From the NCBI GenBank assembly GCA_045863235.1, contig BTUM01000092.1:1-29677 (forward strand): 29,677 bases of DNA. Direction: 5' to 3'. The notes under the pieces are model-generated. The model did not search any database, was not told the origin of the DNA, and saw only the letters and a program-made list of their open reading frames with translations. This DNA is from Candidatus Xenobia bacterium (GTDB taxonomy: Bacteria > Vulcanimicrobiota > Xenobia > Xenobiales > QWHO01). Position 1 is the stretch's first letter; every line of letters starts with the position of its first letter. Of this stretch, positions 616-19,380 are shown piece by piece. A program made the position numbers and the translations under genes.

Positions 616-1335
616 TCAGTAACGGTCGTTGCGCAGATAAATCTTGCGGGTGAGCGAGAAGCTTTCGGGCGGAGCGCCTTCGGGGGCGGGCGCCTCGGCC
701 GAAAGGCTGACCGTGTGCGGAACCCGGGTCAGGTCCACGTCGAAGGTCTTCAGGATACCGAGCAGACGCTCTTCCCCGCGCGGATTGTCGGTGATCAGGG
801 TCAACTCGTCCAGGGTCGGCTTGAAGGATTCGTCGATGTCGGGACGTCGGCCCACGGGGTAGCCGGGGGGCCAGACCAGACGGTAGAGCTTGCCGGAATC
901 CACGCGCCACCAGTAGATAACCAGCTGGTCGCTCCAGGTCTGCTGTCCGACCGTGTCGACCCCGGTGAAGGCTTGAATGGCGAGAATCAACGTCCCGCCG
1001 GGAGGCGGGGCCCCGGTTGTCGGATAGCGGGTAATCCCCGCGGCCGGTGCCGTGGCGAGATCGGCGCAGACCTTCTGCATGGCCATCAGGGCCACTTGCT
1101 GGATCTCGATCTGCTGCGAGCCGCGAACCGCTCCTCTGCCCATCGGTACGACCACCTGGATGATCAGGGTGAGAATCAAGAGCAGCAGGACGCAGCCCAC
1201 CATGATCTCGATGAGAGTGAAACCTCTCGTTCTCGAGCCGCAAACCCTGTGGTGTCGGAGGGAACCTCCGCCACCACAAGATGTTGTAGGCGGCCGGACT
1301 TCCAGGTTTCCGGCTGAGCTCTTAGCGGCGAACAT
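616..1335 (-). CDS. Type IV prepilin-like protein (PilW/GspJ-like minor pilin) with an abnormally long leader
   Basis: RG|FTLIEIMVGCVLLLLILTLI N-methylation motif. ATG at 1335 overlaps the end of the upstream gene (alternative GTG at 1353). The 38-aa leader spans a palindromic element. Confidence 0.8.
   Translation of the reverse strand: MFAAKSSAGNLEVRPPTTSCGGGGSLRHHRVCGSRTRGFTLIEIMVGCVLLLLILTLIIQVVVPMGRGAVRGSQQIEIQQVALMAMQKVCADLATAPAAGITRYPTTGAPPPGGTLILAIQAFTGVDTVGQQTWSDQLVIYWWRVDSGKLYRLVWPPGYPVGRRPDIDESFKPTLDELTLITDNPRGEERLLGILKTFDVDLTRVPHTVSLSAEAPAPEGAPPESFSLTRKIYLRNDRY
1237..1316. repeat. Palindromic REP/MITE-like element, copy 1
   Basis: 1237-1305 matches 19246-19317 except for a 3-nt indel and 2 substitutions. 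Inner hairpin TGTGGTGTCGGAGG-GAA-CCTCCGCCACCACA at 1248-1278. GTAG at 1286-1289 is followed by an imperfect stem (1291-1298/1309-1316). Confidence 0.9.
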
Positions 1336-1720
1336 TGGTCCTGGCCATCTCACGCACGAGCACGTGATCCATGTTGCGGTCCTTCCAGCGCACCGTCACC
1401 TTGATTCGCTTGATCATCGTGGGATCCACCCCGACCGGTCCGGTCATGTCAAAGATCTCCACGCTGGGCTCGAACTCGGTGCCCCGCCCGGGAACCTTGG
1501 GGAGGACCTGCGGCGGCCCGGGCCTGAGGTCTTTGAAACTGACCACCATGTACTCCTCCAGCACCGAGTCGGCCACGGCATCGGCCTGCAGCTTCTGGCC
1601 CGAGACCCGCAGGGTGGCCATGGAGCGGGGGAAGAGGTTGAAGATCAGCACCACGGTCAAAGAGAGCAGGAAGACTGCCAGAACCGACTCGGCTATGCTG
1701 ACCGCATGATTTCGTCTCAC
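1322..1720 (-). CDS. Small pilin-like protein (PilV/GspI-like)
   Basis: MRRNHA|VSIAESVLAVFLL has Glu at +5 and a hydrophobic helix. It ends KRIKVTVRW. Paralogous to 19361-19756. Start/stop overlap with the upstream gene. Confidence 0.75.
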   Translation of the reverse strand: MRRNHAVSIAESVLAVFLLSLTVVLIFNLFPRSMATLRVSGQKLQADAVADSVLEEYMVVSFKDLRPGPPQVLPKVPGRGTEFEPSVEIFDMTGPVGVDPTMIKRIKVTVRWKDRNMDHVLVREMARTNVRR

Positions 1721-3288
1721 AGGCTTTGCACCACCTCAACCATGGGAAGCAGAGTGGCCAGGGCCACGATGGCGGCTGCCACACCCATCAGCATCATCAA
1801 CAGGGGCTCCAGGGCGGCCGCCGCCATCTCGAGCGCCGCCTCCAGCTCGAGCTGATACATCCGAGAGAGCCACTGGAGAGTTTCGGGCACGCTGCCCGAT
1901 TCCTCGCCCGCCCTGAGCACCAGTAAGAACCCGCGTGGGAAAAATTCCGTGAGCCCAAGGCTCTGCTGCAGGTTGCGACCATCCTTGGCGGCCTCGATCG
2001 TCTTGGGAATGGCCTGCTCGAGGACCGGGTTGCCAGAGGCTGCCGCCGCGTTGGGAAGCGCTTCCAATAGCCCCAGCCCGACTCTGATCTGCACCGCCAG
2101 GGCTTCGCCGAAGTGAGCGGCCCCCATCAACCGGATCAGGTGGCCGATCTTGGGGATGCGCATCAACAGGCGATAAAGAAGGAGCTTGCCAGCTGGCGTC
2201 CGCAGATAGGCCAGCAAGAAAGGCCCTCCGAGCAGGGGGATGGCCGCCATCACCAGGATGACCCGGATGTCAGTCAGGGCAAACACCAAGCGGGTGATCA
2301 TGGGGGGCTGTGTGCCCAGTTGAGCCAGCAGGTCGAGTTGGCCCTTCAACAGGATCGGGGCTCCCACCATCATCATCACCAGGCAGATGCCGAACAAGAG
2401 CAGTGGGTAAGTCAGCACCGAGAGCAGCTTCATGCGCATGGCCCGCTGGCTCTCCTCGTAGTCGGCCAGTTGCTGCAAGACCTGCACGAGTTGCCCGGTG
2501 GCCTCACCCACCTTGACCAGGCGGAGCTGGAAACTGGTAAAGGAGGGCGAGCTGCGAGACAGGGCTTGCGAGAGCGGCATGCCGGCGTCGACGATCGAGC
2601 GGGTAAGCAGGCACACCTCGGCAGCTTTCTTCTCCTCAGACTGCTTGGCTAGAACCGAGAGAGCCCGGCCGATGGGGATTCCCGCCGCCATGAGAGTGGC
2701 CAGGGAGCGCAGCAAGATGACCATGGCCCGGCCCGAGAGCCGAGGTCCGGTGCTAGACCCCGGCGGGGGATCGGCCGAGGGTTGGGAGGGGGTCGAGCGA
2801 GTGGGAGACGAGGTCTCTCGCACACGAACCGGCTCGGAGCGGGCCCGAGCCGCTGGTGGACCCGGGCTAGCTGGCTCGTCCAGACGTTGCTCGAGCTTGC
2901 GAGCATACTCGCTCAGGCGCTCGGCATCCTGGCGCGTGAAAGACACTGTGGCCATGCGGTGATCAGCGTAGAGAATCCCTCGCACCTGACCGTCCCGGCC
3001 CAGCAAGGGGACGCAGAGGACGGCTCGCACGTCCGAAAGGAGCAAGCTGGAGCTTTCCAGCAGCTTGGGGTCGCGGCGGGCGTCGGAGCTGAGAAGCGTC
3101 TGGCGTGATTCGACCACCTTGTCCACCACGGTCATGCTGATAGGGGCGTGGCTGCTGTTGGTGTCGACTCCCCGAGTGGCCCAGGCGGTGAACGGCTCGT
3201 CGGGCGATTCGCGGAAAAGCACAAGCAGTCGCTCGGCCTTGAGATGACTGCGCATGAAGGCCAGGGCTTCATCGAAGAGTTGGCTCAA
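1717..3288 (-). CDS. GAF domain fused to a type II secretion F / PilC family platform protein
   Basis: N-terminal GAF (VRAVLCVPL...RGILYADHR), a Pro/Ser/Thr linker, then two T2SSF repeats (LATLMAAGIPI...VGEATGQL...LTYP; AGEESGSV...LEPLLM). Confidence 0.85.
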   Translation of the reverse strand: MSQLFDEALAFMRSHLKAERLLVLFRESPDEPFTAWATRGVDTNSSHAPISMTVVDKVVESRQTLLSSDARRDPKLLESSSLLLSDVRAVLCVPLLGRDGQVRGILYADHRMATVSFTRQDAERLSEYARKLEQRLDEPASPGPPAARARSEPVRVRETSSPTRSTPSQPSADPPPGSSTGPRLSGRAMVILLRSLATLMAAGIPIGRALSVLAKQSEEKKAAEVCLLTRSIVDAGMPLSQALSRSSPSFTSFQLRLVKVGEATGQLVQVLQQLADYEESQRAMRMKLLSVLTYPLLLFGICLVMMMVGAPILLKGQLDLLAQLGTQPPMITRLVFALTDIRVILVMAAIPLLGGPFLLAYLRTPAGKLLLYRLLMRIPKIGHLIRLMGAAHFGEALAVQIRVGLGLLEALPNAAAASGNPVLEQAIPKTIEAAKDGRNLQQSLGLTEFFPRGFLLVLRAGEESGSVPETLQWLSRMYQLELEAALEMAAAALEPLLMMLMGVAAAIVALATLLPMVEVVQSL

Positions 3289-3316
3289 TCCCGATTCGCT
3301 TACCTGGGGCAGCCGC

Positions 3317-4657
3317 TCACCCCTTTCCCCACCGTCTCAGAGCAAGGCTCAGAGCCTGACCTGCTTCTTCTACATCGGCGAAGCGGTCTCCCGGTTGCTT
3401 GGCCAGCATTCGAGCTAAAACTCCATCCACTTCAGGCGGAACACCTTCTCGCAGCTCGGAAGGCGGCTGAGGAGTGTCTGAGATCTGCATGAAGAGCACC
3501 TGCATCGGGTCCTCCGCATTGAAAGTTCGCTGGCCGGTGATCATCTCGTGCACGATCAGCCCCAGGGCATACTGGTCGCTGGCTGGCTCGTAAACGCTTC
3601 CTCCCCGGACTTGCTCGGGAGCCATGTAAGCCGGCGTGCCCAGAGCGGTCCCGGTGAGAGTGACGCGGTCAAGGTGCGAGCTGCGCGCGAGACCGAAGTC
3701 GAGCACTTTCACGTCGCCTCGGGAAGTGATCATGATGTTTTCCGGTTTGAGATCGCGATGCACGACGCCCCGGGCGTGGGCGTACGAGACGGCTGAGAAC
3801 AAAGGTCCACAGATGCGGTAGATCTCGGCCGGCGTAAGCAGCTTCTGGCGCATGAGCTTGGCCATGGTCTCGCCATCCACATACTCCATCACGAGGAATT
3901 TACGCCCATCTTTGTCGCCGTAGTCGTAGAGGCGAACGATGTTCTTGTGCAGCAGGTTGAGGCACACCTTGACCTCGCGCTGAAAGCGAGCCTCGTACTC
4001 CTCGTTGTGGTCGAGCTCGGCCTGAAGCACCTTGATGGCGACCGCCTTGGAGTCGTCCAGCGTCTCCTCGGGTACGGCGTAGTAGACCCGGGCCATGCCG
4101 CCGCCCCCGAGCTCTCGGATCAGCCGGTAGCCACCCAGAGTCGGGCTGACCTGGGTGAACTCGGTGGTGGCGATGATATCGTCGAGCTGTTTGACCCGCT
4201 TCATGGCTCGCCGGGCCCGAAGATAATGCCAGAACCCCAGGCCACCCAGTCCGAGCACCGGCAGGCTGGCATAGAACACCCAGCGATTGCGCTGCCAGTG
4301 ACCTTGCAGGCTGGAGGGCTTGAGGTAGATGACCCCCTCGACCGGATAAGTGTAGGTGCGCCCGGTGGCTGCGGCGACCCCGAAGGTCGTCCGAGCGCTG
4401 ACGCTGACGTTTTGAGTCGCGTAGCCCTCTCGCTTGAAGCTGAGCTCGATCTGGCCATCTCCGAAGGGCTCGAGATCGAGCAGCAGCGGCTTGTTGGCCT
4501 GGCCCACGAAGCCATACTGGTGCCACACTCCGGCATCGGTCGGCTCGACCCGGAAGATCACCTTGACTTTTGGGTCTGGCTTCCCGTTCTGAGCGCTGAC
4601 CGGCAAACCGGCCAGCACCACCAGGACGAGAATCAGGACTGCTCGCCACCCGCTCAC
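3317..4657 (-). CDS. Membrane Ser/Thr protein kinase with an N-terminal signal peptide and PEGA-like ectodomain
   Basis: Hanks motifs [25 protein letters not shown] and GTPAYMAPE. Signal peptide from GTG 4657 (start uncertain; the ORF is open to 4705). TM helix [18 protein letters not shown]. Confidence 0.9.
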
Positions 4658-4700
4658 GATCGATTGATTCGTGGCAACCTTGCCCGAGGCCCTGCCTGGA

Positions 4701-4733
4701 TGCAACCGGTGTGCAACGGGTGCGGTCTAATTT
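4701..4733 (+). promoter_or_regulatory. Putative phaC promoter: tandem TGCAAC(C/G)GGTG repeat plus -10 TAATTT, likely leaderless
   Basis: 11-bp direct repeat at 4701-4722. TAATTT at 4728-4733 lies 6 nt before ATG 4740. No Shine-Dalgarno sequence. Confidence 0.5.
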
Positions 4734-4739
4734 TCGCCC

Positions 4740-5795
4740 ATGAAAACCGTCACCCGAGCCCTTCGCTGGGCCAGTCTCACTTCCGGTCAAGAGACCGTTC
4801 CCATCGCCACGACTCCGCGCGAGGCCATCTACGAGCGCGACCGCATGGTGTTGTACCGCTATCGTCAGGACAACCCTACCCAGAAAGTCCCGATTCTCCT
4901 GATCTACTCTCTGATCAACCGGCCCAGCGTGCTCGACCTGCGACCCGGTCGCAGCGTGGTGCAGAACCTCTTGGCCCAGGGGTTCGAGGTGTATTTGCTG
5001 GACTGGGGTATCCCCAACGCCCTGGACCAGTTCTTCGATCTCGATGCCTACGTCAACTTGCTGCTGCGCGCCGCGGTTCGCGAGGTTTGCCTGCACGCCG
5101 AGGTGCCGCAGATTACCCTGCTGGGCTACTGTATGGGCGGTACGCTGACGGGAATGTATACCGCCCTGCACCCTGAGCGGGTAGCCAACCTGGTGCTCCT
5201 GGGCGCGCCCTTCTCTTTCCGCAGCGAGCAGCTTCTCTATCGCTGGGGCACCGACCCCAAGGTGCTCGACCCGCAGAAGGTGCACGAGGCGTTCGGCAAC
5301 GCCCCGCCCTGGGCGTTCGAGGGCTTCTCGCTGCTGACGCTCGACTCCAAGCCGGCCAAACTGCACGGACTCTACCAGAACCTGGACGACCCTGCCTTCC
5401 TGGAGAGCTACCTGGCCATGGAGCAGTGGGTGTCGGACAACATCCCGATGCCCGGAGCGATATACTCCGAGTTCATTCGAACCTGTTTCCACGAGAACCG
5501 CCTCTTCCGGGGGAAGCTCAAGATCGCTGGAAAGACGGTCAACCTCAGCCGCATCAAGTGCCCGACTCTGATCCTGGCGGGTGAGAAAGATCACCTGGTG
5601 CCGCCCGAGACCACCTGCCGCCTGACCGAGCTCGTGCCTCAAGCCGAAACCATCGTGTTCCCGTCCGGGCATATCGGGCTGTCGGTTTCGGGCGGCTCCC
5701 AGAAGAAACTGTGGCCCCAGGTTGGCAACTGGCTTTCGCTGCAACAGCCTTGCAACGAGCCGGAGCTAATCTCCAGCCAGACAACGGAGGACTGA
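4740..5795 (+). CDS. phaC: Poly(3-hydroxyalkanoate) synthase catalytic subunit, class III/IV type
   Basis: 351 aa. PILLIYSLINRPSVLDL, VYLLDWG, lipase-like box GYCMGG, GEKDHLVP (Asp) and SGHIG (His). Confidence 0.93.
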   Translation: MKTVTRALRWASLTSGQETVPIATTPREAIYERDRMVLYRYRQDNPTQKVPILLIYSLINRPSVLDLRPGRSVVQNLLAQGFEVYLLDWGIPNALDQFFDLDAYVNLLLRAAVREVCLHAEVPQITLLGYCMGGTLTGMYTALHPERVANLVLLGAPFSFRSEQLLYRWGTDPKVLDPQKVHEAFGNAPPWAFEGFSLLTLDSKPAKLHGLYQNLDDPAFLESYLAMEQWVSDNIPMPGAIYSEFIRTCFHENRLFRGKLKIAGKTVNLSRIKCPTLILAGEKDHLVPPETTCRLTELVPQAETIVFPSGHIGLSVSGGSQKKLWPQVGNWLSLQQPCNEPELISSQTTED

Positions 5796-5798
5796 TAG

Positions 5799-6200
5799 AT
5801 GACTAGCAAGACCGAAGAGAATACCTTCGAGAACCTGGCCGACCAATGGCGCCAGATGTGGCTCGACAACTGGGCCAGCGTCACTCGCACCACGGTCGAT
5901 TCAGATAGCTTCAAGAATGCCAACGCGGCCGCTTTCAACTGGACCCTGGCGGGCCAGAAGATGTGGCGCGATGCGATGGGGCAGGCCCTGGAGAGCATGG
6001 ATCTTCCGCGCCGCAGCGACCTGGCCCGCCTCTCGCGCCAGATCGCGGCCCTCGAGGCTCGAGTGCTGGATATGCAAGAAGAGCTGGCTCAGACCCGTAA
6101 GGCCGCCGCTCGACCCGAGCCCAAACCCAAAGCCCAACCCAAGACTCAGCCCAAGACGGCGCCTGCCAAGGCCGCCAATCAGAAAGGAAAATCCAAATGA
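5799..6200 (+). CDS. PhaE/PhaR-type second subunit of the PHA synthase, short, with a Lys/Pro/Ala tail
   Basis: Directly after phaC with a GGAGG SD. LPRRSDLARLSRQIAALEARV resembles the PhaE C-terminal coiled coil. Tail PKPKAQPKTQPKTAPAKAA. Confidence 0.7.
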   Translation: MTSKTEENTFENLADQWRQMWLDNWASVTRTTVDSDSFKNANAAAFNWTLAGQKMWRDAMGQALESMDLPRRSDLARLSRQIAALEARVLDMQEELAQTRKAAARPEPKPKAQPKTQPKTAPAKAANQKGKSK

Positions 6201-6538
6201 GCAACGCGACCCAAGAGCTGAAACAATTCAACGAGGCCATGATGCAGACCACGATGCAGGCCGTTTCCACCGCCCTCTGGGCCCAGGAGCAGGCTGACCA
6301 CCTCGTGCGCGCCTGCCTCGACAGCCAGAAGTCCACTCGCGAAGAGGGCAAGAAGCTGGCTGAGAAGATGGCCGAGCAGGTCAAAGCCAACCAGGAGAAC
6401 CTGCAGCGCTTCATCCACAGCTCGGTGAGCCTGTCTTTGGCCTCGATGCGCATCCCGCAGCCGGGTCAGGTGGAAGAGCTGAACCGCAAGGTGGAGGCTC
6501 TCACCAAGGAACTGGAAGCCATCAAGAAGACGAAGTAA
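6197..6538 (+). CDS. Phasin-like PHA granule-associated protein
   Basis: ATGA overlap with the previous gene. 113-aa all-helical amphipathic sequence in a pha operon context. Confidence 0.6.
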   Translation: MSNATQELKQFNEAMMQTTMQAVSTALWAQEQADHLVRACLDSQKSTREEGKKLAEKMAEQVKANQENLQRFIHSSVSLSLASMRIPQPGQVEELNRKVEALTKELEAIKKTK

Positions 6539-6576
6539 CGTTCCTCAGAACCCTTTGGCCCGACGCGCGCTGGGCG

Positions 6577-6612
6577 CGCTTGAGATAGATTGTCCGCTTG
6601 AGATAGATTGTC
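6577..6612. repeat. Perfect 18-bp tandem duplication CGCTTGAGATAGATTGTC x2
   Basis: 6577-6594 is identical to 6595-6612, between convergent genes. Confidence 0.95.
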
Positions 6613-6669
6613 CCCTTGCCCCGCCCGGGTGTTCCTCCACAAGCCTGGTGCGGGGCTCTCCTTTTCCCC

Positions 6670-8604
6670 TCAGCTGGCTCGGACCGTGGCGGCCGGCTCT
6701 CCGACCTCGGCCGCCTCGACCTCAGCCTCGACTTTGCCTCCGGCCCTGGCCTCGACCTCAGCCTCGACCTCGCCCCTGGCCTCGACCTCGGCCTCGAGCC
6801 CGACCTGCACGTGGTTGCGACCCGAGCGCTTGGCGCGGTAGAGGGCCTCGTCGGCCACCTTGATCACCTCATTGCCATCCCGGCCGTGATAAGGGAAGGC
6901 TGCCACCCCGATGGACAGGCTGATGGGCCCGACCGGACGCCCGCCCGAGCTGACGTTCAAGCCCTGAGCGGCGGCGCGCAGCTTTTCGGCCCGCTCCCGA
7001 GCCACCTCCAGGCTGGCTCCCGGAAGCAGCACGGCGAACTCCTCGCCGCCAAAGCGGCAGGGAATGTCTTCGGCTCGCACGCTGTTCTTGAGCAACACCC
7101 CCAGAGCTTGCAGCACTGCATCTCCGGCCTCGTGGCCGAAATTGTCGTTGAACTGCTTGAAATGGTCGATGTCGATCATCAGCACGCCCATCGGCTGGTC
7201 GTTGCGCATGGAGCGGTGGAGCTCGCGGTCGAGCGACGCTTCCAGGTAGCGGCGGTTGAACAGGCCCGTAAGGCCGTCACGGATGGACTGGTTGCGCAAC
7301 GTCTCGCGCAACCTGAGGTTGGCCAGGGCCAGCGAAAGTTGCTCGCTGACGGTGACGGCCAGTTGCTCGTCGATCACGGCTCCTTCCAGGCACAGCACGC
7401 CCAGGGCTTCGCTCTGAGCCACCAGCGGGATGCACAGCTCGTTTCCCGGCTGCTTGTCTTCGTGATAATGATGGCAGTGCAGGGCTCCGGGCTCGACGGC
7501 CGAGTGGGCCCGCCCGCGGCGCAGGGCCCAGCAGTCCTCCGGGCTGAACATGCGCTCGCTCCTGGGCTCTCCCCAGCTGGTGACGGCCTCCAACAGCGTG
7601 CGCGAGGGGGTGGTGAGGAGCAGCGTGCCGCAGGTGTCGGGAAAGACCCGCTCGCCAAAGCTGGCCACCACCTGGTAAGCTTCCTCGGCGCGAACGGCGG
7701 TCTGCAAGAGCTCGGTGAGCTTGCTCATCTCCTCGATCTCCATATTCTTGCGCCGCAAAGCCTCGACCCGGTCAGCCAGCATGGCGTTGGTGGCCCTCAG
7801 CGCTTCCTCGGCGTTGAAGCGCAGCTCGCGGCCCAGTTGCAGTTGCTCGGCCATGCGGTTGAAGGCTCGTCCGAGCTGTCCGATCTCGTCGCTGGAGCTG
7901 ATCTCCACCCGGTAATCGAGCCTGCCCTCGCCGATCTCCGTAATGCCGGCTACCAGGCGCTGCAACGGGATCGTCAGGTCGTTCACAACGGCCCGGCCCA
8001 TCGTGTAGATCATCAAGATGGCCACCAGGGCTTCCACTCCGAGAGTGACATAGGTCTGGTTCTTGCGGCTGTCAACTTGCTTTCGTAGCAAGCGTAACTC
8101 GGCTTGCTGCCCGATGCGCAGGGCATTCACCGATTCGTAGAAGCGGTCGAGCACCTGGCGATCCTGGTTGTCCACCAGCAGTTTGGCGATGTCTCCGTGG
8201 CCTTTCTCCCGAGCGATCTGCATGATCTGGGTCAGGCGGCTCATTCGCTCGGTGCAGTAACGGCGCAGGGCGGGAAGTTGGACCAGCAGATGCTCCTCCG
8301 TGCCCAGAGCCCCCTCCACCTCCTCCAGAGCATACTTCTGCTCTGGCTCGGTGGACTCGAACTTGCGTAAAGCTTGAGGATCTCCGGTCAGGGCATAGGT
8401 CAGGGCGGCCGACTCGGCCCTCGTCAGGCTGGCTTCCAGGTCGATCATGGCGCGCAGAAGTTGCTCGCCAGCAGCCACCCTTTCGATGTCCTTGAGCTGG
8501 CTGTGGACGGTGAGCGTCGACACCACCCCGATGACGATCAGCACGAGCACGGTGATCGTTACGCCGAACCCGATTTTGTAGCCGATCGAGGAGCGAAACT
8601 TCAC
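6670..8604 (-). CDS. Membrane sensor diguanylate cyclase (CHASE3-like, HAMP, GAF, GGDEF)
   Basis: Two TM helices, HAMP (DEIGQLGRAFNRM), GAF, DGLTGLFNRR, DIDHFKQFND, and RAED..GGEEF. Start set at GTG 8604, just after the upstream stop at 8633. Confidence 0.92.
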   Translation of the reverse strand: MKFRSSIGYKIGFGVTITVLVLIVIGVVSTLTVHSQLKDIERVAAGEQLLRAMIDLEASLTRAESAALTYALTGDPQALRKFESTEPEQKYALEEVEGALGTEEHLLVQLPALRRYCTERMSRLTQIMQIAREKGHGDIAKLLVDNQDRQVLDRFYESVNALRIGQQAELRLLRKQVDSRKNQTYVTLGVEALVAILMIYTMGRAVVNDLTIPLQRLVAGITEIGEGRLDYRVEISSSDEIGQLGRAFNRMAEQLQLGRELRFNAEEALRATNAMLADRVEALRRKNMEIEEMSKLTELLQTAVRAEEAYQVVASFGERVFPDTCGTLLLTTPSRTLLEAVTSWGEPRSERMFSPEDCWALRRGRAHSAVEPGALHCHHYHEDKQPGNELCIPLVAQSEALGVLCLEGAVIDEQLAVTVSEQLSLALANLRLRETLRNQSIRDGLTGLFNRRYLEASLDRELHRSMRNDQPMGVLMIDIDHFKQFNDNFGHEAGDAVLQALGVLLKNSVRAEDIPCRFGGEEFAVLLPGASLEVARERAEKLRAAAQGLNVSSGGRPVGPISLSIGVAAFPYHGRDGNEVIKVADEALYRAKRSGRNHVQVGLEAEVEARGEVEAEVEARAGGKVEAEVEAAEVGEPAATVRAS

Positions 8605-8632
8605 CTGCCGTTGTTCGAGGTCGGTTTCGAAA

Positions 8633-9751: not shown

Positions 9752-9758
9752 CCCTTCA

Positions 9759-9829: not shown

Positions 9830-9835
9830 CAGAGC

Positions 9836-11284: not shown

Positions 11285-11290
11285 GGGTTC

Positions 11291-11312
11291 AGCTTAATCG
11301 GGCGGCCTGAAA
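11291..11312 (-). promoter_or_regulatory. TTTCAG-N10-TAAGCT promoter-like motif, leaderless geometry
   Basis: TTTCAG 11312-11307, TAAGCT 11296-11291, then 6 nt to ATG 11284. Confidence 0.55.
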
Positions 11313-11743
11313 GTTTTCTCGAAGCAGAGGCTGTGGGGGTTGCCAACGAATGGCCCGTATGGCTCGATGGGCTGGAATCCAGCTGCTCGGTAGAGCCCGG
11401 CTGCCTCGGGGCGAAGGTCGCCCGTCTCCAGAATCAGTCTGTGGTAGCCATGCTGGCGCGCCCATGACTCCAACCCGGCCAGCAGAAGGCGTCCCACCCC
11501 CTGCCCTCTGGCTTCGGGGGTCACGTACATCCGCTTGACCTCCAGAGTCTGGCTCGAGAAGGGCACCAGGGCGGCGCATCCCAGCGTCTTACCTCGCGAG
11601 CAGGCCAGCAGGAAGTGGCAGGGATCCTGGAAACGCTCGGTGCCGTCGTCGCCATAGATGCTCCTCAACTCGCTCGACAGGGCCTCGAGCAAAGCCTTCC
11701 CCCGCGGATCCTCGATCGAGGCTGCCTGGAGCTCTACAGGCAC
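11294..11743 (-). CDS. GNAT family N-acetyltransferase
   Basis: EVKRMYVTPEARGQGVGRLLL (motif A), LETG...AAGLYRAAGF. Confidence 0.9.
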   Translation of the reverse strand: MPVELQAASIEDPRGKALLEALSSELRSIYGDDGTERFQDPCHFLLACSRGKTLGCAALVPFSSQTLEVKRMYVTPEARGQGVGRLLLAGLESWARQHGYHRLILETGDLRPEAAGLYRAAGFQPIEPYGPFVGNPHSLCFEKTFRPPD

Positions 11744-12678
11744 GAGCGGAGGAAATCGGCGATGCGGCGCTCGATCCAGGGTCGCCAGCCGGGGCCGATG
11801 TAACCCAGGTGCCCGCCCTGCTCGGTGACCTCCAGGCTGAGATTGGTGTTGGCGGCCACCAGCGCGTGCGGCAGGTCGCCGGGAGCCAGGAAAGGATCGT
11901 CGGCGGCGTTGATCAGGTGGGCCCGGCGGGCGATCCGGCTCAGGTAGAAGAGCGAGCTGCAGTGGCCCCAGTAGTCTTCCTCGTCGCGAAAGCCATTCAG
12001 GGGGGCGGTCACTTCGCGGTCAAAGTCGGTCAGGGTGCGCGCTGCTGCCACCCGCTTCCACTCGAGCGCCCCGGGAAAGCGTTCGAGCAGGCTGGCGACC
12101 CGGGCCTTCAGACGGCGCACCATGTAATAGCGGTAGAAGCGCGAGATGGCGTCTTTCTCGAGCTGGCGCGCGCAGTTGCCCAGGTTGTAGGGCACGCAGG
12201 CGGCGCAGCCCACCACGCCAGGCGGGGCCTGCTGGCCTCTCTCGCCCAGCCACTTGAGCAAGATGTTGCCCCCCAGCGAGAATCCCACCACCCCCAGCCG
12301 GGGACCGAAGCGCTCGAGCAGGTGGTCGACCACCAGGTCCAGGTCGTCGCTGCGCCCGGCGTGATACAGGCGGGGTTGGCCAGGAGGACCCAGGGCCCCG
12401 CGAAAGTTCATGCCCACCACCCGGGCGGGCAGGCGGTGAGCAGCCGCCATGGCCCCGCGCACGATGGGAGAGCTGGAGGTGCCGCTCAGCCCGTGCAGGA
12501 CCAGCACGGTGGGAACCTGCCCCGGGGCGTCCAGGAAGTCGAGCCCCAGACGCTCGCCGTCCGGTGCCTGGAACCACTCGCGACGTGGCTTGAGCGGAGG
12601 ACAGGGACGCAGGGCCGCCCCGGCCAGGGTTTGCAGGTGGGGATGGGCCAGCCCGGGCTGGGGTCGAAAACAGGTCAA
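11734..12678 (-). CDS. YheT-like alpha/beta hydrolase
   Basis: HPHLQTL, LHGLSGTS, YHAGRSDD, GFSLGGN, NAADDPF, GGHLG. Confidence 0.88.
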   Translation of the reverse strand: MTCFRPQPGLAHPHLQTLAGAALRPCPPLKPRREWFQAPDGERLGLDFLDAPGQVPTVLVLHGLSGTSSSPIVRGAMAAAHRLPARVVGMNFRGALGPPGQPRLYHAGRSDDLDLVVDHLLERFGPRLGVVGFSLGGNILLKWLGERGQQAPPGVVGCAACVPYNLGNCARQLEKDAISRFYRYYMVRRLKARVASLLERFPGALEWKRVAAARTLTDFDREVTAPLNGFRDEEDYWGHCSSLFYLSRIARRAHLINAADDPFLAPGDLPHALVAANTNLSLEVTEQGGHLGYIGPGWRPWIERRIADFLRSCL

Positions 12679-13454
12679 GCTTCCGAGCTGCCCAGCAGGG
12701 CGTCCACCGCCCCGGTCCCGGGCAGGCGGCTACAGGGCTCGAAGTCGGCCTGCTCGACGCGCTCGATGAACGCCAGTATCTCCTCGAAGACCTGCTCGCG
12801 CTCCACGTCGCGCATCATCTCATGGCGGCTGACCTCGAACCAGCGCACCTGGGCAAAGGGGCTGCCGGAGCGGGCGCGGATGCTCTCGGCCGCGTCCAGG
12901 CGCACCACCGGGTCCTGGGTGGACTGAATGACCAGCAGGGGGGCTTTCAGGTAGGGCAGCACCTCCTTGACCACCTCGCGGTAGGCGTACAGGCTGGCGA
13001 AGGCTTGCAGCGGGAAGTAGCTGTAGTTGGTGTCCTGCTCCTTCAGGGCGGGGTCGGCATAGTCGGGGCTGGAAGGCCAGTCGCGCAGGGTGCGCTGCAG
13101 CAGGCCGAGGTAGGGGATCAGGGGATGGCGGAATTCGAGGCAGGCGGCCACGGTCACCACCCCCACCACGCTGTCGGGGTGCTCGGCGGCCAGGTTGAGG
13201 GCCACCAGTCCCCCCATCGAAAGCCCGACCACGACCACCGGCAGGCCCCGGGCGGTCAGCTCGAGCAGGGCCTCGCGAGCATCCTCCACCCAGTCGCGCC
13301 AGGTCACGCCCCGCAACGCCTCGGGGGTCTGACCGTGGCCGCGCAGCACGGGCATCCGGTAGGGAATGCCCAGCTGCTCGAGGTGGGGCACCAGCCCGTT
13401 CACCGTGTCCAGGCTGGAGGTAAAGCCGTGGAGGAGGAGGACTCCGACTTGCAA
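12675..13454 (-). CDS. Carboxylesterase / monoacylglycerol lipase family alpha/beta hydrolase
   Basis: LLLHGFTSS, LRGHG, GLSMGG, QDPVV and SRH. AGGAG SD before the TTG start. Confidence 0.88.
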   Translation of the reverse strand: MQVGVLLLHGFTSSLDTVNGLVPHLEQLGIPYRMPVLRGHGQTPEALRGVTWRDWVEDAREALLELTARGLPVVVVGLSMGGLVALNLAAEHPDSVVGVVTVAACLEFRHPLIPYLGLLQRTLRDWPSSPDYADPALKEQDTNYSYFPLQAFASLYAYREVVKEVLPYLKAPLLVIQSTQDPVVRLDAAESIRARSGSPFAQVRWFEVSRHEMMRDVEREQVFEEILAFIERVEQADFEPCSRLPGTGAVDALLGSSEA

Positions 13455-13539
13455 GGGCGGCTCCTGACTAAAGGATTATGCGTTCCGTGCTGGCACCTCC
13501 AGACAAATCTATCGGTGCAAAACTTTCAGCGCTTCACTT

Positions 13540-14097
13540 TCAAAGATGGGGCGAGGGAGCCAGTACCGGCTCGCTCACCTGTATCGACGTGATCACGGTT
13601 TTCTCGACCGTGAAGTGGATCCCCTTGTCCCAATACTGGATGCGGCCCGGGGTGGTGGGCTTCTGCTCGAACTCGAAGGCCTTGCCGAATTCGCGGATGG
13701 CCGTATCCACGTCGCCCTGGACGGCCGAGCCGCCCCGGGTGCGAAAGGCGGGATTCTTGACCAGAATCGAGTTGACCCGCCCCTCGGTTGCCATCAGGCT
13801 GACGCCGAGCTGGTCGAACTGGTAGACCAGGCCCCCCTCGGTGGGACGAATCAGGGCCTTGCCCCAGCGGCGCTCCACTTCGCCCACGTCCAGGCCCAGC
13901 GTGACCACGTCCACCCGGTGACCGGGCACGATCTCCATGTCGTTGGGCCCGGGGCGAGCCTCGGCCGGGCTGGCGACAGGCTCGGGACGGGTGGTGTGGT
14001 AGGCCACCACCGCGCCCAGTGCCAGGGTGACCAGCAGGATCAGCACCAGCGGCCAGGCCGCTCGGCGCGGGGGGCTATCCTCCTCGGTTTCTTCCAT
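13540..14097 (-). CDS. Hypothetical single-pass membrane protein
   Basis: N-terminal TM helix (WPLVLILLVTLALGAVVAY). Fits between co-oriented genes, with a GAGG SD. Confidence 0.7.
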   Translation of the reverse strand: MEETEEDSPPRRAAWPLVLILLVTLALGAVVAYHTTRPEPVASPAEARPGPNDMEIVPGHRVDVVTLGLDVGEVERRWGKALIRPTEGGLVYQFDQLGVSLMATEGRVNSILVKNPAFRTRGGSAVQGDVDTAIREFGKAFEFEQKPTTPGRIQYWDKGIHFTVEKTVITSIQVSEPVLAPSPHL

Positions 14098-14124
14098 CCT
14101 CGAGGACCTTCGCGTCGGGCCGGG

Positions 14125-15330
14125 TCACTCCTCGGACGGGGGAGGCGGCATCTGGTCCAGGCCCGGGGGCCGGGTGGCCTCGAGGCCGCGCTGGTGAGAA
14201 TAATCGAGCGCGAAGTGGAGCAACTCGCGGGCTCCCGCGGCGATCTCACGCGAGACCTGCAGGGCCTCCGGGACGGCCGGCTGGAACTCGCGCGCGTCCT
14301 CCACGATGGTCGAGAAGACCCCCTTGTGATGGTAGAAGTAGTCGTCCGAGGCGCCACTGACCACCTGCGAGGTCACCGTGGCATACTCGCGCCCCCGTAC
14401 CGACTTGATGGCTGCGGCCATACGCGAGTGCATGGCGTCGTAGACGGGGCGGTCGGCCTCGGAGACGCCCCAGGGCCGGCGCACTTCCTCGCCCTGGGAA
14501 TGCCAGTCGCACAGGAAGCGAATGTTGGGCCGCTCCTCCACCAGCGAGGCCACGTGGCGGGTCTCGGGCTCAGAGAGGGGCGCCGGGCCGGGATAAACCT
14601 CGCTCGCGACGTCCGAGCTCGACTTCCACAGGTGGGGGTAGTTGCGGTTGACGTCCACCCCCACCCCGCCCGTCTCGGGTGAGCGATTCTTGCGCCACAT
14701 CGCCTCGTCGAACATGGAGTAGTTGGTCCCATCGGGATTGGTGACGGGGATGACGTAGAGGTCGAGGTTCTGCACCAGGGCGGTGTTGGCTGCCACGGCC
14801 GGCTCGCTGGAGGTGGGGTCGTAGTTGGCCAGCAGCTGCTCGGTCAGCTCCACCATGCCGATGGGCTGGCACCACTCGCGGGCGTGAGGGGCGGCAAAGT
14901 TGAGCACGCCCAGCTTCTCGTCGCGCCCGGGGTCGTCCTTCGGTCCGATGCGAAGGTAGTAGAGGGGGGCCGGGCCGCGCAGCTCGGCCCTTTGTCCATC
15001 GTATCCGTCGGTCTGGTAGGGCCGCTCCACCAGCTCGACCAGGTCGGGATAGCGCCGGGTGAGGTCCTGGGCCCAGCGGTAGACTTCGGTGGGGGCCATG
15101 TAGCCGTTGACGAAGCCGGTCTTGAGCCCGGCCAGCAGACCCGCTCCCACCACCGGGCCGGCCGCGGCGGCCACGGTGGGTGCGACCACCTCGGCTCCCC
15201 GCGCAGGAGCTGACGCCGAGCCGCTCAACGTCACGGTGTCGGCGGGCTCGGCCGCGGGGGCGCAGGCGGCCCTGGGGCGCGCAGCCATGGTGCTCAGCAT
15301 GGGTTGGCTCGAGACAGGGGCGACTTGCAT
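14125..15330 (-). CDS. M14 family zinc carboxypeptidase
   Basis: HAREW, NPDG, WRKNR, GVDVNRNY, SEPET and DWHS. Low-complexity N-terminus with no Sec signal. Confidence 0.9.
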   Translation of the reverse strand: MQVAPVSSQPMLSTMAARPRAACAPAAEPADTVTLSGSASAPARGAEVVAPTVAAAAGPVVGAGLLAGLKTGFVNGYMAPTEVYRWAQDLTRRYPDLVELVERPYQTDGYDGQRAELRGPAPLYYLRIGPKDDPGRDEKLGVLNFAAPHAREWCQPIGMVELTEQLLANYDPTSSEPAVAANTALVQNLDLYVIPVTNPDGTNYSMFDEAMWRKNRSPETGGVGVDVNRNYPHLWKSSSDVASEVYPGPAPLSEPETRHVASLVEERPNIRFLCDWHSQGEEVRRPWGVSEADRPVYDAMHSRMAAAIKSVRGREYATVTSQVVSGASDDYFYHHKGVFSTIVEDAREFQPAVPEALQVSREIAAGARELLHFALDYSHQRGLEATRPPGLDQMPPPPSEE

Positions 15331-15340
15331 GGCCCTAAAG

Positions 15341-15958
15341 TTAGCCTTGCCCGGACTGCGAAAAGGCTACCTGCTTGTGTACATTGCGTCGAGTCTGGTA
15401 GGCAACCACCACCGCGCGCACCGGGCTCGCACCCGCTTCCCGCAGGGCCAGGGCACACGAGATCAGGGTCGAGCCGGTGGTCAGCACGTCATCCACCAGC
15501 ACCACCGGGCCGCTGACGCGACTGCGCGCCTGAACGGTCCTCAACTGGCGGCGTTGCGCAAGCTCGAGGCGCTTTTGCTGGGGACCATCGGGACAGGAAA
15601 GCAAAGCTTTCCAGGGGCGGTCGAGAGCCCGCACCAGCAGCTCGGAGGGGTTGAAGCCGCGCTGGTGGTGGCGCCAGGGGCCGCTGGGGACGGGCACCAG
15701 CAGCCCCGGCGGGCAGGAGAGCAGGGCCGCCAGCTCGCGGGCACAGGCCAGGTGGCCCTGGAACTTGAGGCCGTGGATTGCCTGGCGCAGGGGACCGTGG
15801 TAGAGGCCCGCGGCCTCGACCAGGTCCAGGCCCGGCAGCAAGGGTGGGGAGGCGGGCTCGATCTGCTGCCGGCAGGCCGGGCAGAAGCCGCGCTGGAACC
15901 GGTCGCAGCCCGGGCAACGAGGAGGGAACAGCAGGTCCGTGAGCAGCCTAAGTGGCAA
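15341..15958 (-). CDS. comF: ComF family protein (zinc ribbon plus PRTase domain)
   Basis: LLFPPRCPGC...FCPAC, PVP...RGFNPSELL and VLVDDVLTTGST. TTG 15958 overlaps the upstream stop. Confidence 0.85.
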   Translation of the reverse strand: MPLRLLTDLLFPPRCPGCDRFQRGFCPACRQQIEPASPPLLPGLDLVEAAGLYHGPLRQAIHGLKFQGHLACARELAALLSCPPGLLVPVPSGPWRHHQRGFNPSELLVRALDRPWKALLSCPDGPQQKRLELAQRRQLRTVQARSRVSGPVVLVDDVLTTGSTLISCALALREAGASPVRAVVVAYQTRRNVHKQVAFSQSGQG

Positions 15959-17006
15959 CTTGCGGGGTCTTGAACGTGAACCGGCTCCCGCTACCCAGGA
16001 CGACCTGCCGGTAGCGATGACCTCCCTCGAGCACACAGCCTGCCCCCACCAGGGCGTCGCTGACCTCGGCCTCCCGGTTGATGCGGCTGGCGTCCCAGAT
16101 GACGCTGGAGGAGAGCTGCACACCTTCCTCGAGCACCACCCCGTCGCCGAGCACCACCGGGCCTTCCAGCCGCACCCCCGCCTCCACGTGGGCTCCGCGT
16201 CCGAGCACCACCGGGGGGACGACGTTGGCCTCGGGGTGCAAGAAGGCGTGCTCGTCGAGCCACACGCCCGGTTTGACCTCGCTTCCCGGCAGGGGGAGGC
16301 CCACCCGGCCCTCGAGAAAGTCACGATTGCCCTGGCGGTAGCTCATCAGATCGCCCACGTCGCGCCAGTAGCCTTCCAACTCGAGCGCGTAGAAGGCCCG
16401 ACCCTCCTGGACCAGGCGGGGAAAGAGCTGGCGACCAAAGTCATAGACGATGTTGGGGATCAGCTCGAAGATGGCGGGCTCGAAGACGTAGATTCCGGTG
16501 TTGCACAGAGGGCTGAAGACCTCGTCGGCCCGGGGCTTCTCCTGGTAGCGCATCACCCGGCCCTGCTCGTCGGTGGCCACGACGCCGACCTCGCTCGGGT
16601 TGTCCCGGCGCACCACGCCCAGGGTGGCCAGGGCCCCGCGCTCCTGGTGGAAGGCGATCAGCTTGCCCAGGTCGAGGTCGGTCAGAAGGTCCCCTCCGAT
16701 CACCAGGAAGGTGGAGCGGAAAAAATCAGCCACCTGGCGCACTCCGCCCGCAGTCCCGAGCAGGTCGGGCTCGACCGAGTAGCGCAAACGGGTGCCCAGA
16801 AACTCGGATTCCCCGAAGTAGTCGGTCACGTAGCGAGGCAAGAGGTGCAGGTTGATCATGACCTCGTCCATCCCGTGCCGCCTGAGGTGTCCGAGGGTGT
16901 GCTCGAGAATGGGCCGGTTGACCATCGGCACCATGGGCATGGGCAGGGCGTAAGTTAGCGGATAGAGCCGGGGCGCGCCCCCCGCGGCCAGCACCATGCC
17001 CTGCAT
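15948..17006 (-). CDS. NDP-sugar pyrophosphorylase family protein (mannose-1-P guanylyltransferase-like) with a left-handed beta-helix
   Basis: MVLAAG...RLYPLT, LGTAGG, GDLLTD, EKP, NTGIY, YWRDVG and hexapeptide repeats. TGATG overlap with the upstream gene. Confidence 0.88.
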   Translation of the reverse strand: MQGMVLAAGGAPRLYPLTYALPMPMVPMVNRPILEHTLGHLRRHGMDEVMINLHLLPRYVTDYFGESEFLGTRLRYSVEPDLLGTAGGVRQVADFFRSTFLVIGGDLLTDLDLGKLIAFHQERGALATLGVVRRDNPSEVGVVATDEQGRVMRYQEKPRADEVFSPLCNTGIYVFEPAIFELIPNIVYDFGRQLFPRLVQEGRAFYALELEGYWRDVGDLMSYRQGNRDFLEGRVGLPLPGSEVKPGVWLDEHAFLHPEANVVPPVVLGRGAHVEAGVRLEGPVVLGDGVVLEEGVQLSSSVIWDASRINREAEVSDALVGAGCVLEGGHRYRQVVLGSGSRFTFKTPQVAT

Positions 17007-17761
17007 CAAAGAGCCCGAGCGCCTTCCGCGCCCCTTCTCACAACTTGCAGCATGAAGCGGGGGATGGCCAGCATGCGGGTGAACCGGCTGGGCTGGCGCA
17101 AAAGGCGATAGAACCACTCCAGGCCCAGCGAGCACATCCAGCCGGGGGCTCGCTGCACCTTGCCGGCGAAGACGTCCAGGCTGCCGCCGACTCCGATGCC
17201 CACACGCGCTCCTAGCTCGGCGGCGTGGCGCTGCATCCACTTCTCCTGGCGCGGGAAGCCCAGGGCCGCCAGCAGGATGTCGGCCTGGGAGGCATTCACG
17301 GCCGCGATGGCCTCCTGGTCGTCTTTGAAGTAGCCGTGCATGGTGCCGGCGATCTGGAGGCCAAAGCGCCGCTCGAGCGTGGCGGCGGCCGCTTCGGCCA
17401 CGCCCGGGGCGGCTCCGAGCAGGAAGATGCGGGGTTTGCGGCCCGAGGGGAGGGTGGCCAGCCTGGGGATCAGATCCACCCCGGGCACCCGCTCGGCCAG
17501 CGGATAGGCGCAGCGGCGCGAAGCCCACACCACCCCGGCGCTGTCGGGTACCACCACGTCGGCCTGGTTGACCAGCTCGCGATACTCGGCATCATGCTGG
17601 GCGTGCATGATCATCTCGACGCCCAGAGTGACCACCTGATGAAATTTATTCTCGTCAAGCAGGGCGTCGAGGCGCGTCAGAGCTTCGTGCATCGAGAGGC
17701 GATGCACTCTGACTCCAAGGATTTCCAGGCTTTCCACCTCGGGATGGACTGTCGCTGCCAT
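17006..17761 (-). CDS. WecB/TagA/CpsF family glycosyltransferase (GT26)
   Basis: VPDSAGVVWA, ERVPGVDL, HGYF, LGFPRQEKW, GVGGSLDV, RAP..LEWFYRL. Confidence 0.92.
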   Translation of the reverse strand: MAATVHPEVESLEILGVRVHRLSMHEALTRLDALLDENKFHQVVTLGVEMIMHAQHDAEYRELVNQADVVVPDSAGVVWASRRCAYPLAERVPGVDLIPRLATLPSGRKPRIFLLGAAPGVAEAAAATLERRFGLQIAGTMHGYFKDDQEAIAAVNASQADILLAALGFPRQEKWMQRHAAELGARVGIGVGGSLDVFAGKVQRAPGWMCSLGLEWFYRLLRQPSRFTRMLAIPRFMLQVVRRGAEGARAL

Positions 17762-17889
17762 GGCTCGCCTCTTCTAGAAATAGCCACGAAACCCTGTTTG
17801 GCGGGGATTGAACCGGCTTCGGGCAGATGAACAATTTACAAGTTGGATCCTCCGGGGGGGGCGGCCGGGTAACTGGCGAACCAGTCTGG

Positions 17890-18657
17890 ATGACGCGACT
17901 TCTCCTCATCTTGCTGTTGATGGGCCTGGCTCAGGCCCAGGAACTCGAGTTGACACCGTTTGCCTATCAGGGAGTGGTGCAACAGGTCACTCCCGGTGGG
18001 GTGTGGCTGCAGACTTCCGACGGGCTGAACGTCATGCTGCCCCAGGGGCTCGACTTCGAAGTGGGAGGGACCCGCGTCGAAGTGGGCTCGCTGGTTCCTG
18101 GCAACCCTTGCTCGGTGCTCGTTCCCGCTGGCCCGGCCCAGGTCGTCGCCGTGCAGGGGGACCTGTGCACCCTGATGCTGCCCACCGGTCCCTGCCAGGT
18201 GCCCGTTTCGGTCCTGCCGGCCGACGCCCTGGGCAAAGGCAAGGTTTCCGTCCTGAAGAACAACGGCAAGGTTGTCCAGGTGCCCCTGAATGCCGCTTTG
18301 AACATGCAGCGCTCACAGGGAGCGCGCATCCTCGGCGCTCCTGGCCTGAGCATCCCTCGCTGGACGAACGGAGCTGCGCTGGAGGGCGTGGTCTGTGGTT
18401 ACCAGGGCGACGACCTGCTGCTGGTGACGGCTGCCGGAGGCCTGCTGGCCGTTCCCTCGCGCTATGCCCCCTCGCTGGCTCCGGGCAGGCCCATCTTCGT
18501 GCCGGGCGGGCCCGATTTCAAAGTGCAAAACTGGGTCCCGGGCTACAAAGCCAAAGGGGGGCCGGTCAAGATCGACGTGGGCGGACCGGGCAACTCGGGC
18601 AAGGGAAACGGGGGGAAAGGCAACCCGGGCAAGGGGAAGAACAAGATCAAATTCTGA
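17890..18657 (+). CDS. Secreted hypothetical protein with a Gly/Lys/Asn-rich tail
   Basis: Sec signal MTRLLLILLLMGLAQA and a C-terminal GPGNSGKGNGGKGNPGKGK. The ORF is open from 17827. Confidence 0.7.
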   Translation: MTRLLLILLLMGLAQAQELELTPFAYQGVVQQVTPGGVWLQTSDGLNVMLPQGLDFEVGGTRVEVGSLVPGNPCSVLVPAGPAQVVAVQGDLCTLMLPTGPCQVPVSVLPADALGKGKVSVLKNNGKVVQVPLNAALNMQRSQGARILGAPGLSIPRWTNGAALEGVVCGYQGDDLLLVTAAGGLLAVPSRYAPSLAPGRPIFVPGGPDFKVQNWVPGYKAKGGPVKIDVGGPGNSGKGNGGKGNPGKGKNKIKF

Positions 18658-18660
18658 CCT

Positions 18661-19380
18661 TTAGAGGCGCAAGAAGACCCGGGTGACCACTTCCATGCCA
18701 TTGGGAGGGTTGCCCTGGCTGGTCAGCCCGAGCTCCAGTCCTAGAGCCGTTCCCTCCCGGAAGATCAACTTGGAGAGCTTGTCGGTGATCAGGATCTCGG
18801 GCAGGGTCGGGTCGTTGATCAAGACGTCCGGGGTGACGTTGGGGCTGGGAAGATTGGGCACCGATCGCGTGGGGTCGGTCGGGTCGACGGGCCGGATCTT
18901 CTGATACAGTCCGGACTGCCGTCGATAGAAGCAGACATGCTTGAAGTAGTAAGGCTGTCCCGTGGCGGGGTCGTGCGTGTAGATCCCGGCCGGACTCTCG
19001 GCCGAGACGAAGCAGAGGGCGTCCTGGGCCAGGTTGATTTCCACCGATTCGTAGGCGGCCGTGGCCAGGGCGCGCTCGATCCTGTTGACCGAGGTCAGCG
19101 TCTCGCGCTGGATGGTGGCCGTGTCGTGGGTGCGGTTGGAGTAGCGCATGGCCAGAACCAGCGCGGCATAGGTCGCGCTCATGATGATCCCGAAGAGCAC
19201 CATCGAGATCAAGACCTCCAGCAGGGTCAACCCTCTAGAAGTCCGGCCGCAAACCCCCCTGTGGTGTCGGAGGGAACCTCCGCCACCACAAGATGTTGCA
19301 GGCGGCCGGACTTCTAGCACACCATGTTGGGCGTCGCGCGGCCGGAACCCGGCCGCGCTCCTACGGCGAGTTGCGGGCAA
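18661..19380 (-). CDS. Type IV prepilin-like protein (PilW/GspJ-like) with an abnormally long leader
   Basis: RG|LTLLEVLISMVLFGII motif. TTG 19380 overlaps the upstream gene end, giving a 50-aa leader across palindromic elements. Start uncertain. Confidence 0.78.
   Translation of the reverse strand: MPATRRRSAAGFRPRDAQHGVLEVRPPATSCGGGGSLRHHRGVCGRTSRGLTLLEVLISMVLFGIIMSATYAALVLAMRYSNRTHDTATIQRETLTSVNRIERALATAAYESVEINLAQDALCFVSAESPAGIYTHDPATGQPYYFKHVCFYRRQSGLYQKIRPVDPTDPTRSVPNLPSPNVTPDVLINDPTLPEILITDKLSKLIFREGTALGLELGLTSQGNPPNGMEVVTRVFLRL
19235..19317. mobile_element. 83-bp MITE/REPIN-like element (copy 2) with 16-bp perfect terminal inverted repeats
   Basis: CTAGAAGTCCGGCCGC (19235-19250) and GCGGCCGGACTTCTAG (19302-19317) enclose the same 31-nt hairpin (19260-19290) as copy 1. 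Mobility is inferred, not shown. Confidence 0.7.
19336..19364 (-). repeat. GTAG-type REP-like hairpin
   Basis: Minus strand GTAG-GA-GCGCGGCCGG-GTT-CCGGCCGCGC, a perfect 10-bp stem. The GTAG includes the TAG stop of the upstream gene. Confidence 0.6.

What the first reader, a model, noticed from the sequence alone, without database searches (positions are those of the whole stretch)
1237..19364. The same palindromic element sits in frame in the disposable leader peptide of two different prepilin genes
Seen: 1237-1305 and 19246-19317 are identical except for 2 substitutions and one frame-preserving 3-nt indel, while the two host genes share no obvious DNA similarity elsewhere. Both copies have the same orientation and frame, contain no stop codon, and encode LEVRPP(T/A)TSCGGGGSLRHHR(G)VCG. 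Both lie just before the G|FTLIE or G|LTLLE cleavage site, in the last gene of each pilus cassette. No in-frame ATG/GTG/TTG lies between the element and the cleavage site, so translation must cross it. The leaders become 38 and 50 aa, against 5-8 aa in neighbouring pilins. Established: prepilin peptidase removes the leader, and in-frame palindromic insertions are known (Rickettsia palindromic elements). Inference: either a REP/MITE family uses class III leaders as a safe haven, or it has been domesticated as an RNA element that tunes minor-pilin levels.
Basis: partly seen in the sequence, partly recalled or inferred. Interest (0 to 1): 0.9.

Follow-up and report, generated by a model that had tools for sequence, protein, structure and literature searches.

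The report
Jumping DNA parked in disposable leaders
A small jumping DNA element has landed in frame in the cut-off leader segment of two pilus genes, and across this genome such elements survive inside genes mostly in leaders that the cell removes, so disposable leaders seem to shelter selfish DNA.

Summary
Observation confirmed, but the element is larger and common. Both copies are eroded members of a 148-bp, CTAG-ended MITE (89 loci, plus three sister families; 261 sites). One end matches an IS1182 transposon of an order-level relative at 28 of 31 bases. Each window copy starts on the stop codon of the upstream pilin gene; that stop overlaps the next prepilin's leader, so the insert falls in the leader. 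Only 2 of 6 frames of the element are open, which forces the shared orientation and frame. Congeners hold empty sites (7-8 aa leaders) or different inserts at the same base. Genome-wide, 14 of 18 inserts found inside genes lie in cleaved leaders (8 prepilin, 6 signal peptides; hand-curated), none in a domain interior, against 3% expected. Occupancy of leader-overlapping stops (5/21) exceeds other overlaps (0/73) but, once target context is controlled, not free stops: tolerance, not targeting. Mature pilins remain under purifying selection. Safe haven supported; domestication not. No expression or cleavage data. This scan's unchecked notes report leader-borne MITEs and IS1182 MITEs at stops in other genomes; ten literature searches found no paper on the leader refuge.

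The parts
19235..19364 (.). MITE copy B (family F1): net insertion 126 nt = 42 codons; 18 nt deleted from hairpin 2 relative to the 148-nt unit
   Evidence: empty in 3 of 4 congeners
19235..19317 (.). Hairpin 1 of copy B (83 nt, closed by the left terminal repeat and its internal inverted copy; inner 31-nt hairpin at 19260-19290)
   Evidence: (z -8.4)
19318..19364 (.). Linker, shortened hairpin 2 (19336-19358) and the IS1182-like end of copy B; in-frame GTG at 19320-19318 on the minus strand
1226..1324 (.). MITE copy A (family F1), eroded: 1237-1305 hairpin 1, 1306-1324 IS1182-like end, linker and most of hairpin 2 lost, 1226-1236 no longer matches; 93 nt longer than the empty orthologue
616..1335 (-). 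Prepilin A (PilW-like minor pilin by position, label inferred): ATG 1335, 38-aa leader, G|FTLIE cleavage before 1221
   Evidence: dN/dS 0.07-0.16
18661..19380 (-). Prepilin B: TTG 19380 with GGAG 7 nt upstream (TTG kept in 4 of 4 congeners), 50-aa leader, G|LTLLE cleavage before 19230
   Evidence: dN/dS 0.12-0.14
1322..1720 (-). Upstream pilin-like gene; its TAA stop (1324-1322) is the insertion point of copy A and lies inside prepilin A's leader
19361..19756 (-). Upstream pilin-like gene; its TAG stop (19363-19361) is the insertion point of copy B and lies inside prepilin B's leader
1717..3288 (-). GAF + T2SSF (PilC-like) platform gene of cassette 1
19753..22337 (-). Large pilin-like gene (about 19753-21060, no Pfam hit) and T2SSF platform gene (21057-22337) of cassette 2

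Best explanation
A non-autonomous IS1182-type MITE inserts at CTAG (inferred from shared ends; no transposition shown). In this 66% GC genome CTAG is rare and often a stop codon, and the insertion rebuilds the stop. In pilin cassettes the next gene's start lies 8-17 nt upstream of that stop, so the insert lands in the class III leader (shown by empty sites). The net insert is 144 nt; only one orientation is open in that phase, so survivors share orientation, frame and peptide (shown by translation). The ribosome reads through the hairpin, PilD cuts at the untouched Gly|Phe/Leu site and the extra 30-48 residues are discarded (inferred). The insert is then nearly neutral and decays, mostly by deletions of 3n (shown). 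The same filter keeps copies in the N-terminal part of ordinary signal peptides. It is tolerance, not targeting or function.
For: 148-nt unit with CTAG at both ends in 14 of 14 end-to-end hits; end identical at 28/31 nt to a complete IS1182 element in G015 and an exact 19-mer about 99 nt before an IS1182-type start in 44 of 120 metagenome loci. 157 of 261 sites, 54 of 99 near-full copies, abut a called stop. Site B empty in G002, G003, G004, 9-nt in-frame remnant in G001; site A empty in G004, other inserts in G001, G003. 2 of 6 frames open; both are used where the CTAG phase predicts. 14 of 18 coding inserts in cleaved leaders against 18 of 581 coding CTAG sites (p about 2e-18). TAG/TAA stops occupied: 5/21 prepilin overlaps, 0/73 other overlaps (p 0.0004; stratified 0.036 and 0.035), 176/2239 free. 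Shared old inserts erode to different lengths in the same frame (146/128 vs empty 8; 76/28/100), whereas 15 of 26 near-full F1 copies genome-wide are not 3n. dN/dS 0.07-0.16. PilD present.
Against: No transcript, translation or cleavage evidence. Leaders of 38 and 50 aa exceed the 6-26 aa range given in PMC4471445. No IS1182 transposase found in G000 or four congeners. Frame is not always kept: the G003 insert at site A (135 nt from stop to cleavage site) and G000 C15:112644 are out of frame with the ancestral start and rely on possible new starts; three further prepilins have 96-121 nt spacers without read-through. Four coding inserts lie in uncleaved tails. The census rests on a home-made gene caller and signal peptides judged by hydropathy and eye; filled non-pilin overlaps could have been miscalled as free stops. 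Only 10 of the 73 other overlaps have the preferred C before the stop. Recent loss of function would not yet show in dN/dS.
Confidence: 0.8

Rival explanations
1. The inserts damage or silence these minor pilins (strong hairpin, broken translational coupling) and persist only because the genome has about 158 prepilin-like genes in redundant cassettes, or because fewer pili is an advantage, for example against phage.
For: Hairpin B is very stable; 158 prepilin-like genes; site A carries an insert in 3 of 4 species compared; two out-of-frame cases.
Against: Later indels in A, B and shared old inserts keep the frame; dN/dS of filled genes (0.07-0.16) matches pairs without the F1 copy (0.08-0.15); the same pattern holds in single-copy exported proteins.
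Confidence: 0.1
2. The hairpin has been domesticated as an RNA element that sets the ratio of the last minor pilin to the upstream pilins.
For: Stable fold in the mRNA sense; three inserts are shared by at least two species; MITE hairpins affect mRNA stability elsewhere (PMC2229807).
Against: Absent or replaced by unrelated, shorter remnants in orthologues; copy A has lost its outer stem (z -2.5 vs -7.3); shared inserts diverge strongly in sequence and length; no Rfam match.
Confidence: 0.07
3. The transposase actively prefers prepilin leader sequences, beyond CTAG.
For: Unstratified occupancy 5/21 vs 176/2239 (p 0.022); repeated hits at orthologous sites.
Against: After splitting by the base before the stop the excess is not significant (3/6 vs 132/739, p 0.076; 2/15 vs 44/1500, p 0.074); about 93% of sites are outside genes.
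Confidence: 0.03

Closest known systems
MITEPye1 of Paracoccus yeei and IS1182-family insertion sequences (PMC11578231, passages seen)
   Same: Short, transposase-free, terminal repeats like those of IS1182 elements, 4-bp-scale direct repeats, long stem-loops.
   Different: MITEPye1 has 1-3 intergenic copies and no ORF; F1 has 89 loci, a two-hairpin plan with internal copies of the terminal repeats, and in-frame copies in leaders.
Rickettsia palindromic elements (RPE; as summarised in PMC2229807 and PMC10969869; original papers not read)
   Same: About 150 bp, palindromic, open frame, fused in frame in protein genes.
   Different: RPEs stay in the mature part of conserved enzymes; here coding copies are concentrated in segments that are cut off, and none was found in a domain interior.
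Caulobacter/Brucella CIR repeats (as summarised in PMC2229807; original paper not held)
   Same: Two stem-loop arms joined by a linker, TA at the ends, several sister families.
   Different: CIRs are described as intergenic only, with stops in all six frames and a GANTC motif; sequence relationship not tested.
MITEPsy1 of Pseudomonas syringae (PMC3189936, passages) and RUP/IS630-Spn1 (PMC2229807)
   Same: CTAG/YTAA or TA targets with duplication; borrowed IS ends. Sister family F3 matches IS630 ends.
   Different: No leader-peptide residence in the passages read.

Membership tests
Bacterial MITE | Short, no transposase, multicopy | tested here: met
   148 nt, 89 loci, 26 near full length
Bacterial MITE | Terminal inverted repeats | tested here: met
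   Imperfect, 19 of 24 nt
Bacterial MITE | Target duplication and empty sites | tested here: met
   Empty orthologues hold one TAG/TAA where the filled site has two; length 2-4 bp unresolved
IS1182-mobilised MITE | Ends shared with an IS1182 element | tested here: met
   28/31 nt with L320, transposase above NF033551 cut-off; 44 of 120 metagenome loci
IS1182-mobilised MITE | Cognate transposase in the same genome | tested here: not met
   None found in G000 or 4 congeners; draft assemblies lose repeats, so the mobiliser's family is inferred, not shown
IS1182-mobilised MITE | Mobilisation by the transposase | not testable with these tools
   Needs a transposition assay
REP/REPIN (RAYT) | Y1 HUH transposase in the genome | tested here: not met
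   PF01797: 0 matches in G000
RPE | In-frame residence in protein genes | tested here: met
   (works like RPE)
RPE | Sequence homology to Rickettsia elements | not tested
   No RPE sequence fetched; no plasmid or Rfam match
CIR | Intergenic only, stops in all six frames | tested here: not met
   Two open frames, intragenic copies
Class III signal peptide | Gly-1, Glu+5, hydrophobic tract | tested here: met
Class III signal peptide | Cleavage by prepilin peptidase | not testable with these tools
   PilD gene present; processing of 38/50-aa leaders untested

The most novel reading that the evidence does not exclude
Cleavable leaders (class III and Sec) are a general niche for selfish DNA in bacteria: host peptidases remove the insert's product, as splicing does for introns and inteins, and F1 has been shaped for that niche (3n net length, one open frame per orientation, each matching a usable CTAG phase), while recurrent insertion and erosion at pilin gene junctions supplies heritable variation in pilus composition.
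Probability: 0.2. Interest if true: 0.8.

Novelty: new variant of a known kind. Interest (0 to 1): 0.52.

Why it matters
It explains, with empty sites and a frame rule, how a mobile element can live inside genes of a compact genome: the cell's own peptidases throw the insert away. It predicts that PilD and the Sec pathway accept leaders of 40-70 residues with a strong mRNA hairpin, which natural filled and empty alleles make directly testable. Practically, such inserts hide true start codons, so these pilins and exported proteins will be mis-annotated as truncated or pseudogenes.

Tried and rejected
REP/RAYT origin: no Y1 transposase. IS630 as partner of F1: my first guess; the one IS630 in G000 has other ends and no F1 end was found within 4 mismatches at 30 IS630 loci; only F3 matches IS630 ends. 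Known RNA family: none in 4 loci. Plasmids: no match. Viral contigs: 8 pattern hits not examined beyond a transposase search; no related transposase locus. Expression: the one RNA-labelled run laid (X3) covers all 30 bins of 19 kb evenly like the DNA runs, so it says nothing on transcription; no joint skipping either element was among those listed. Records with other phylum labels that hold the end motif were not counted as spread of the element. My note that all inserts at site A are in frame was wrong: G003's is not. No orthologue found for the C33 prepilin. C59:47294 and C16:20153 were not checked against congeners. Of 35 open frames spanning a site I dropped those with a plausible start after the element. 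Literature searches without a paper on leader-resident MITEs: (listings only). No structure or complex prediction was run: not informative for a cleaved leader.
Full report
Observation. The two stretches align as stated (72 columns, 2 substitutions, one 3-nt gap) and translate in frame into 38- and 50-residue leaders of two genes with Pfam N_methyl hits.

The element. BLAST and a profile show a 148-nt unit: CTAG, hairpin 1 (83 nt), linker, hairpin 2, CTAG, with imperfect terminal repeats (19 of 24). Three sister families share the plan and a similar linker but have their own ends; together 284 loci at 261 sites, 89 of them F1. F1 is found in 4 of 4 congeners, 3 of 16 genomes of a neighbouring family and 0 of 20 others searched. 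Copy B lacks 18 nt of hairpin 2; copy A has lost the linker, most of hairpin 2 and its left end.

Mobiliser. A 19-nt end motif lies about 99 nt upstream of a transposase start in 44 of 120 metagenome loci; the one protein scanned passes the IS1182 cut-off. A complete IS1182 in order-level relative G015 matches the F1 end at 28 of 31 nt. F2 ends resemble an IS1182-like element of G007 (3 mismatches in 18; just under the cut-off); F3 ends resemble an IS630 of G009. No such IS1182 was found in G000 or its congeners, so mobilisation is inferred.

Why leaders are hit. The genome has 1847 CTAG, and 392 called genes end in C-TAG. 157 of 261 sites touch a called stop. Both window copies begin on the stop of the upstream pilin gene, and the prepilin's start lies 11 and 17 nt upstream of that stop. 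Site B is empty in G002, G003 and G004 (8-aa leader) and has a 9-nt in-frame remnant in G001. Site A is empty in G004 (7-aa leader), has a 30-nt in-frame insert resembling the opposite end of F1 in G001 (below profile significance) and an unrelated, out-of-frame insert with its own possible starts in G003; no G002 orthologue was found. A contig from another run carries three extra bases in copy A, again in frame.

Why the same orientation and frame. In 148-nt copies only two of six frames are open. The other open frame is used where the target is a CTA codon (C70, C88:13002). The shared peptide is therefore a filter effect.

Census inside genes. Of 158 prepilin-like genes, eight carry an element in the leader: five clear F1 copies (A, B, C3:192682, C33:47364, C88:15029), a 33-nt F1 remnant (C58:12002, empty in 3 congeners, not at a stop) and two weak F3 remnants (C15:65141, C53:7912). 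Six inserts lie at the start of predicted signal peptides: C30:63123, C88:13002, C70:35949, C12:91466, C69:14808 in frame with empty orthologues, and C15:112644, in frame in G001 but out of frame in G000. Four lie elsewhere: N-terminal tails C16:110036 and C9:105921, C-terminal tail C40:22883, and unverified C59:47294. None lies in a domain interior. 14 of 18 contrasts with 18 of 581 coding CTAG sites in the first 25 codons of hydrophobic-start genes (p about 2e-18; among N-terminal sites 14 of 17 against 18 of 77, p about 5e-7). These counts are hand-curated on a home-made gene caller, without SignalP, so the p-values overstate precision.

Tolerance or targeting. TAG/TAA stops are occupied at 5 of 21 prepilin overlaps, 0 of 73 other overlaps and 176 of 2239 free stops. 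A C before the stop raises occupancy about six-fold; stratified, prepilin overlaps still differ from other overlaps (p 0.036, 0.035) but not from free stops (p 0.076, 0.074). Leaders behave roughly like intergenic DNA.

Are the genes alive? Mature A and B have dN/dS 0.07-0.16 against congeners, like pairs without the F1 copy (0.08-0.15). Old shared inserts have eroded to different lengths in one frame, while 15 of 26 near-full F1 copies are not 3n. A PilD gene is present. Against: no expression data, leaders longer than the 6-26 aa range in PMC4471445 (passages), and the out-of-frame exceptions above.

Comparison. As an element F1 is a new IS1182-type MITE family like MITEPye1 (PMC11578231, passages); its in-frame habit works like RPE and its two-arm plan like CIR (PMC2229807, parts 1-2 of 3 read; PMC10969869, passages). 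That review also notes a Yersinia repeat forming part of a predicted signal peptide. IS1182 element ISPse1 makes a 4-bp repeat (PMC3281130, passages). The labels PilV/PilW and the Sec pathway reading are from my own knowledge. Ten searches gave no paper on cleavable leaders as a refuge; subscription journals and supplements were not seen. Unchecked notes of this scan report MITEs in prepilin leaders in other lineages, mostly at the cleavage-site codons, and IS1182 MITEs at CTAG stops; I did not test them. New here are the link between the two through gene overlap, the frame rule and the extension to signal peptides.

Verdict. Real; best read as a neutral safe haven for a known kind of element (0.8). 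New variant of a known kind; interest 0.52.

Noticed in passing
window 19288-19335 and all F1 copies; G000:C23 upstream of 58900 (L340): F1 carries two similar 14-16-nt motifs 31 nt apart that resemble the pair of boxes, also 31 nt apart, upstream of this genome's nrdJ; nrdR is present. The operator consensus is recalled; the first motif is not kept in variants from G007, G009, G025. Chance or captured operator is undecided.
   Followed up: partly
G000, 284 loci: Four repeat families with different ends (two IS1182-like, one IS630-like, one unassigned) share a two-hairpin plan and a similar central linker, and often sit in tandem or nested; why unrelated transposon ends share a core is unexplained.
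   Followed up: partly
G000 genome: About 158 prepilin-like genes in many small cassettes, 12 PilB/PilT-like ATPase motifs, one PilD found.
   Followed up: no
L054 (G003, orthologue of prepilin A); G000:C15:112644: Out-of-frame inserts that seem to supply a new ribosome-binding site or start codon for the host gene.
   Followed up: partly
window 1717-3288: A GAF domain is fused in front of the T2SSF (PilC-like) platform domain.
   Followed up: no
window 1-132: 15-bp tandem repeat encoding a Thr/Gly-rich linker at the contig start.
   Followed up: no
L157 (G002): The signal peptide that holds F1 in G000 (C88:13002) holds a different short tandem-repeat expansion in G002.
   Followed up: no
L008 (G025): A diverged F1 variant occurs in 15 near-identical matches, suggesting recent spread, though no IS1182 match was found there with my query.
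   Followed up: no
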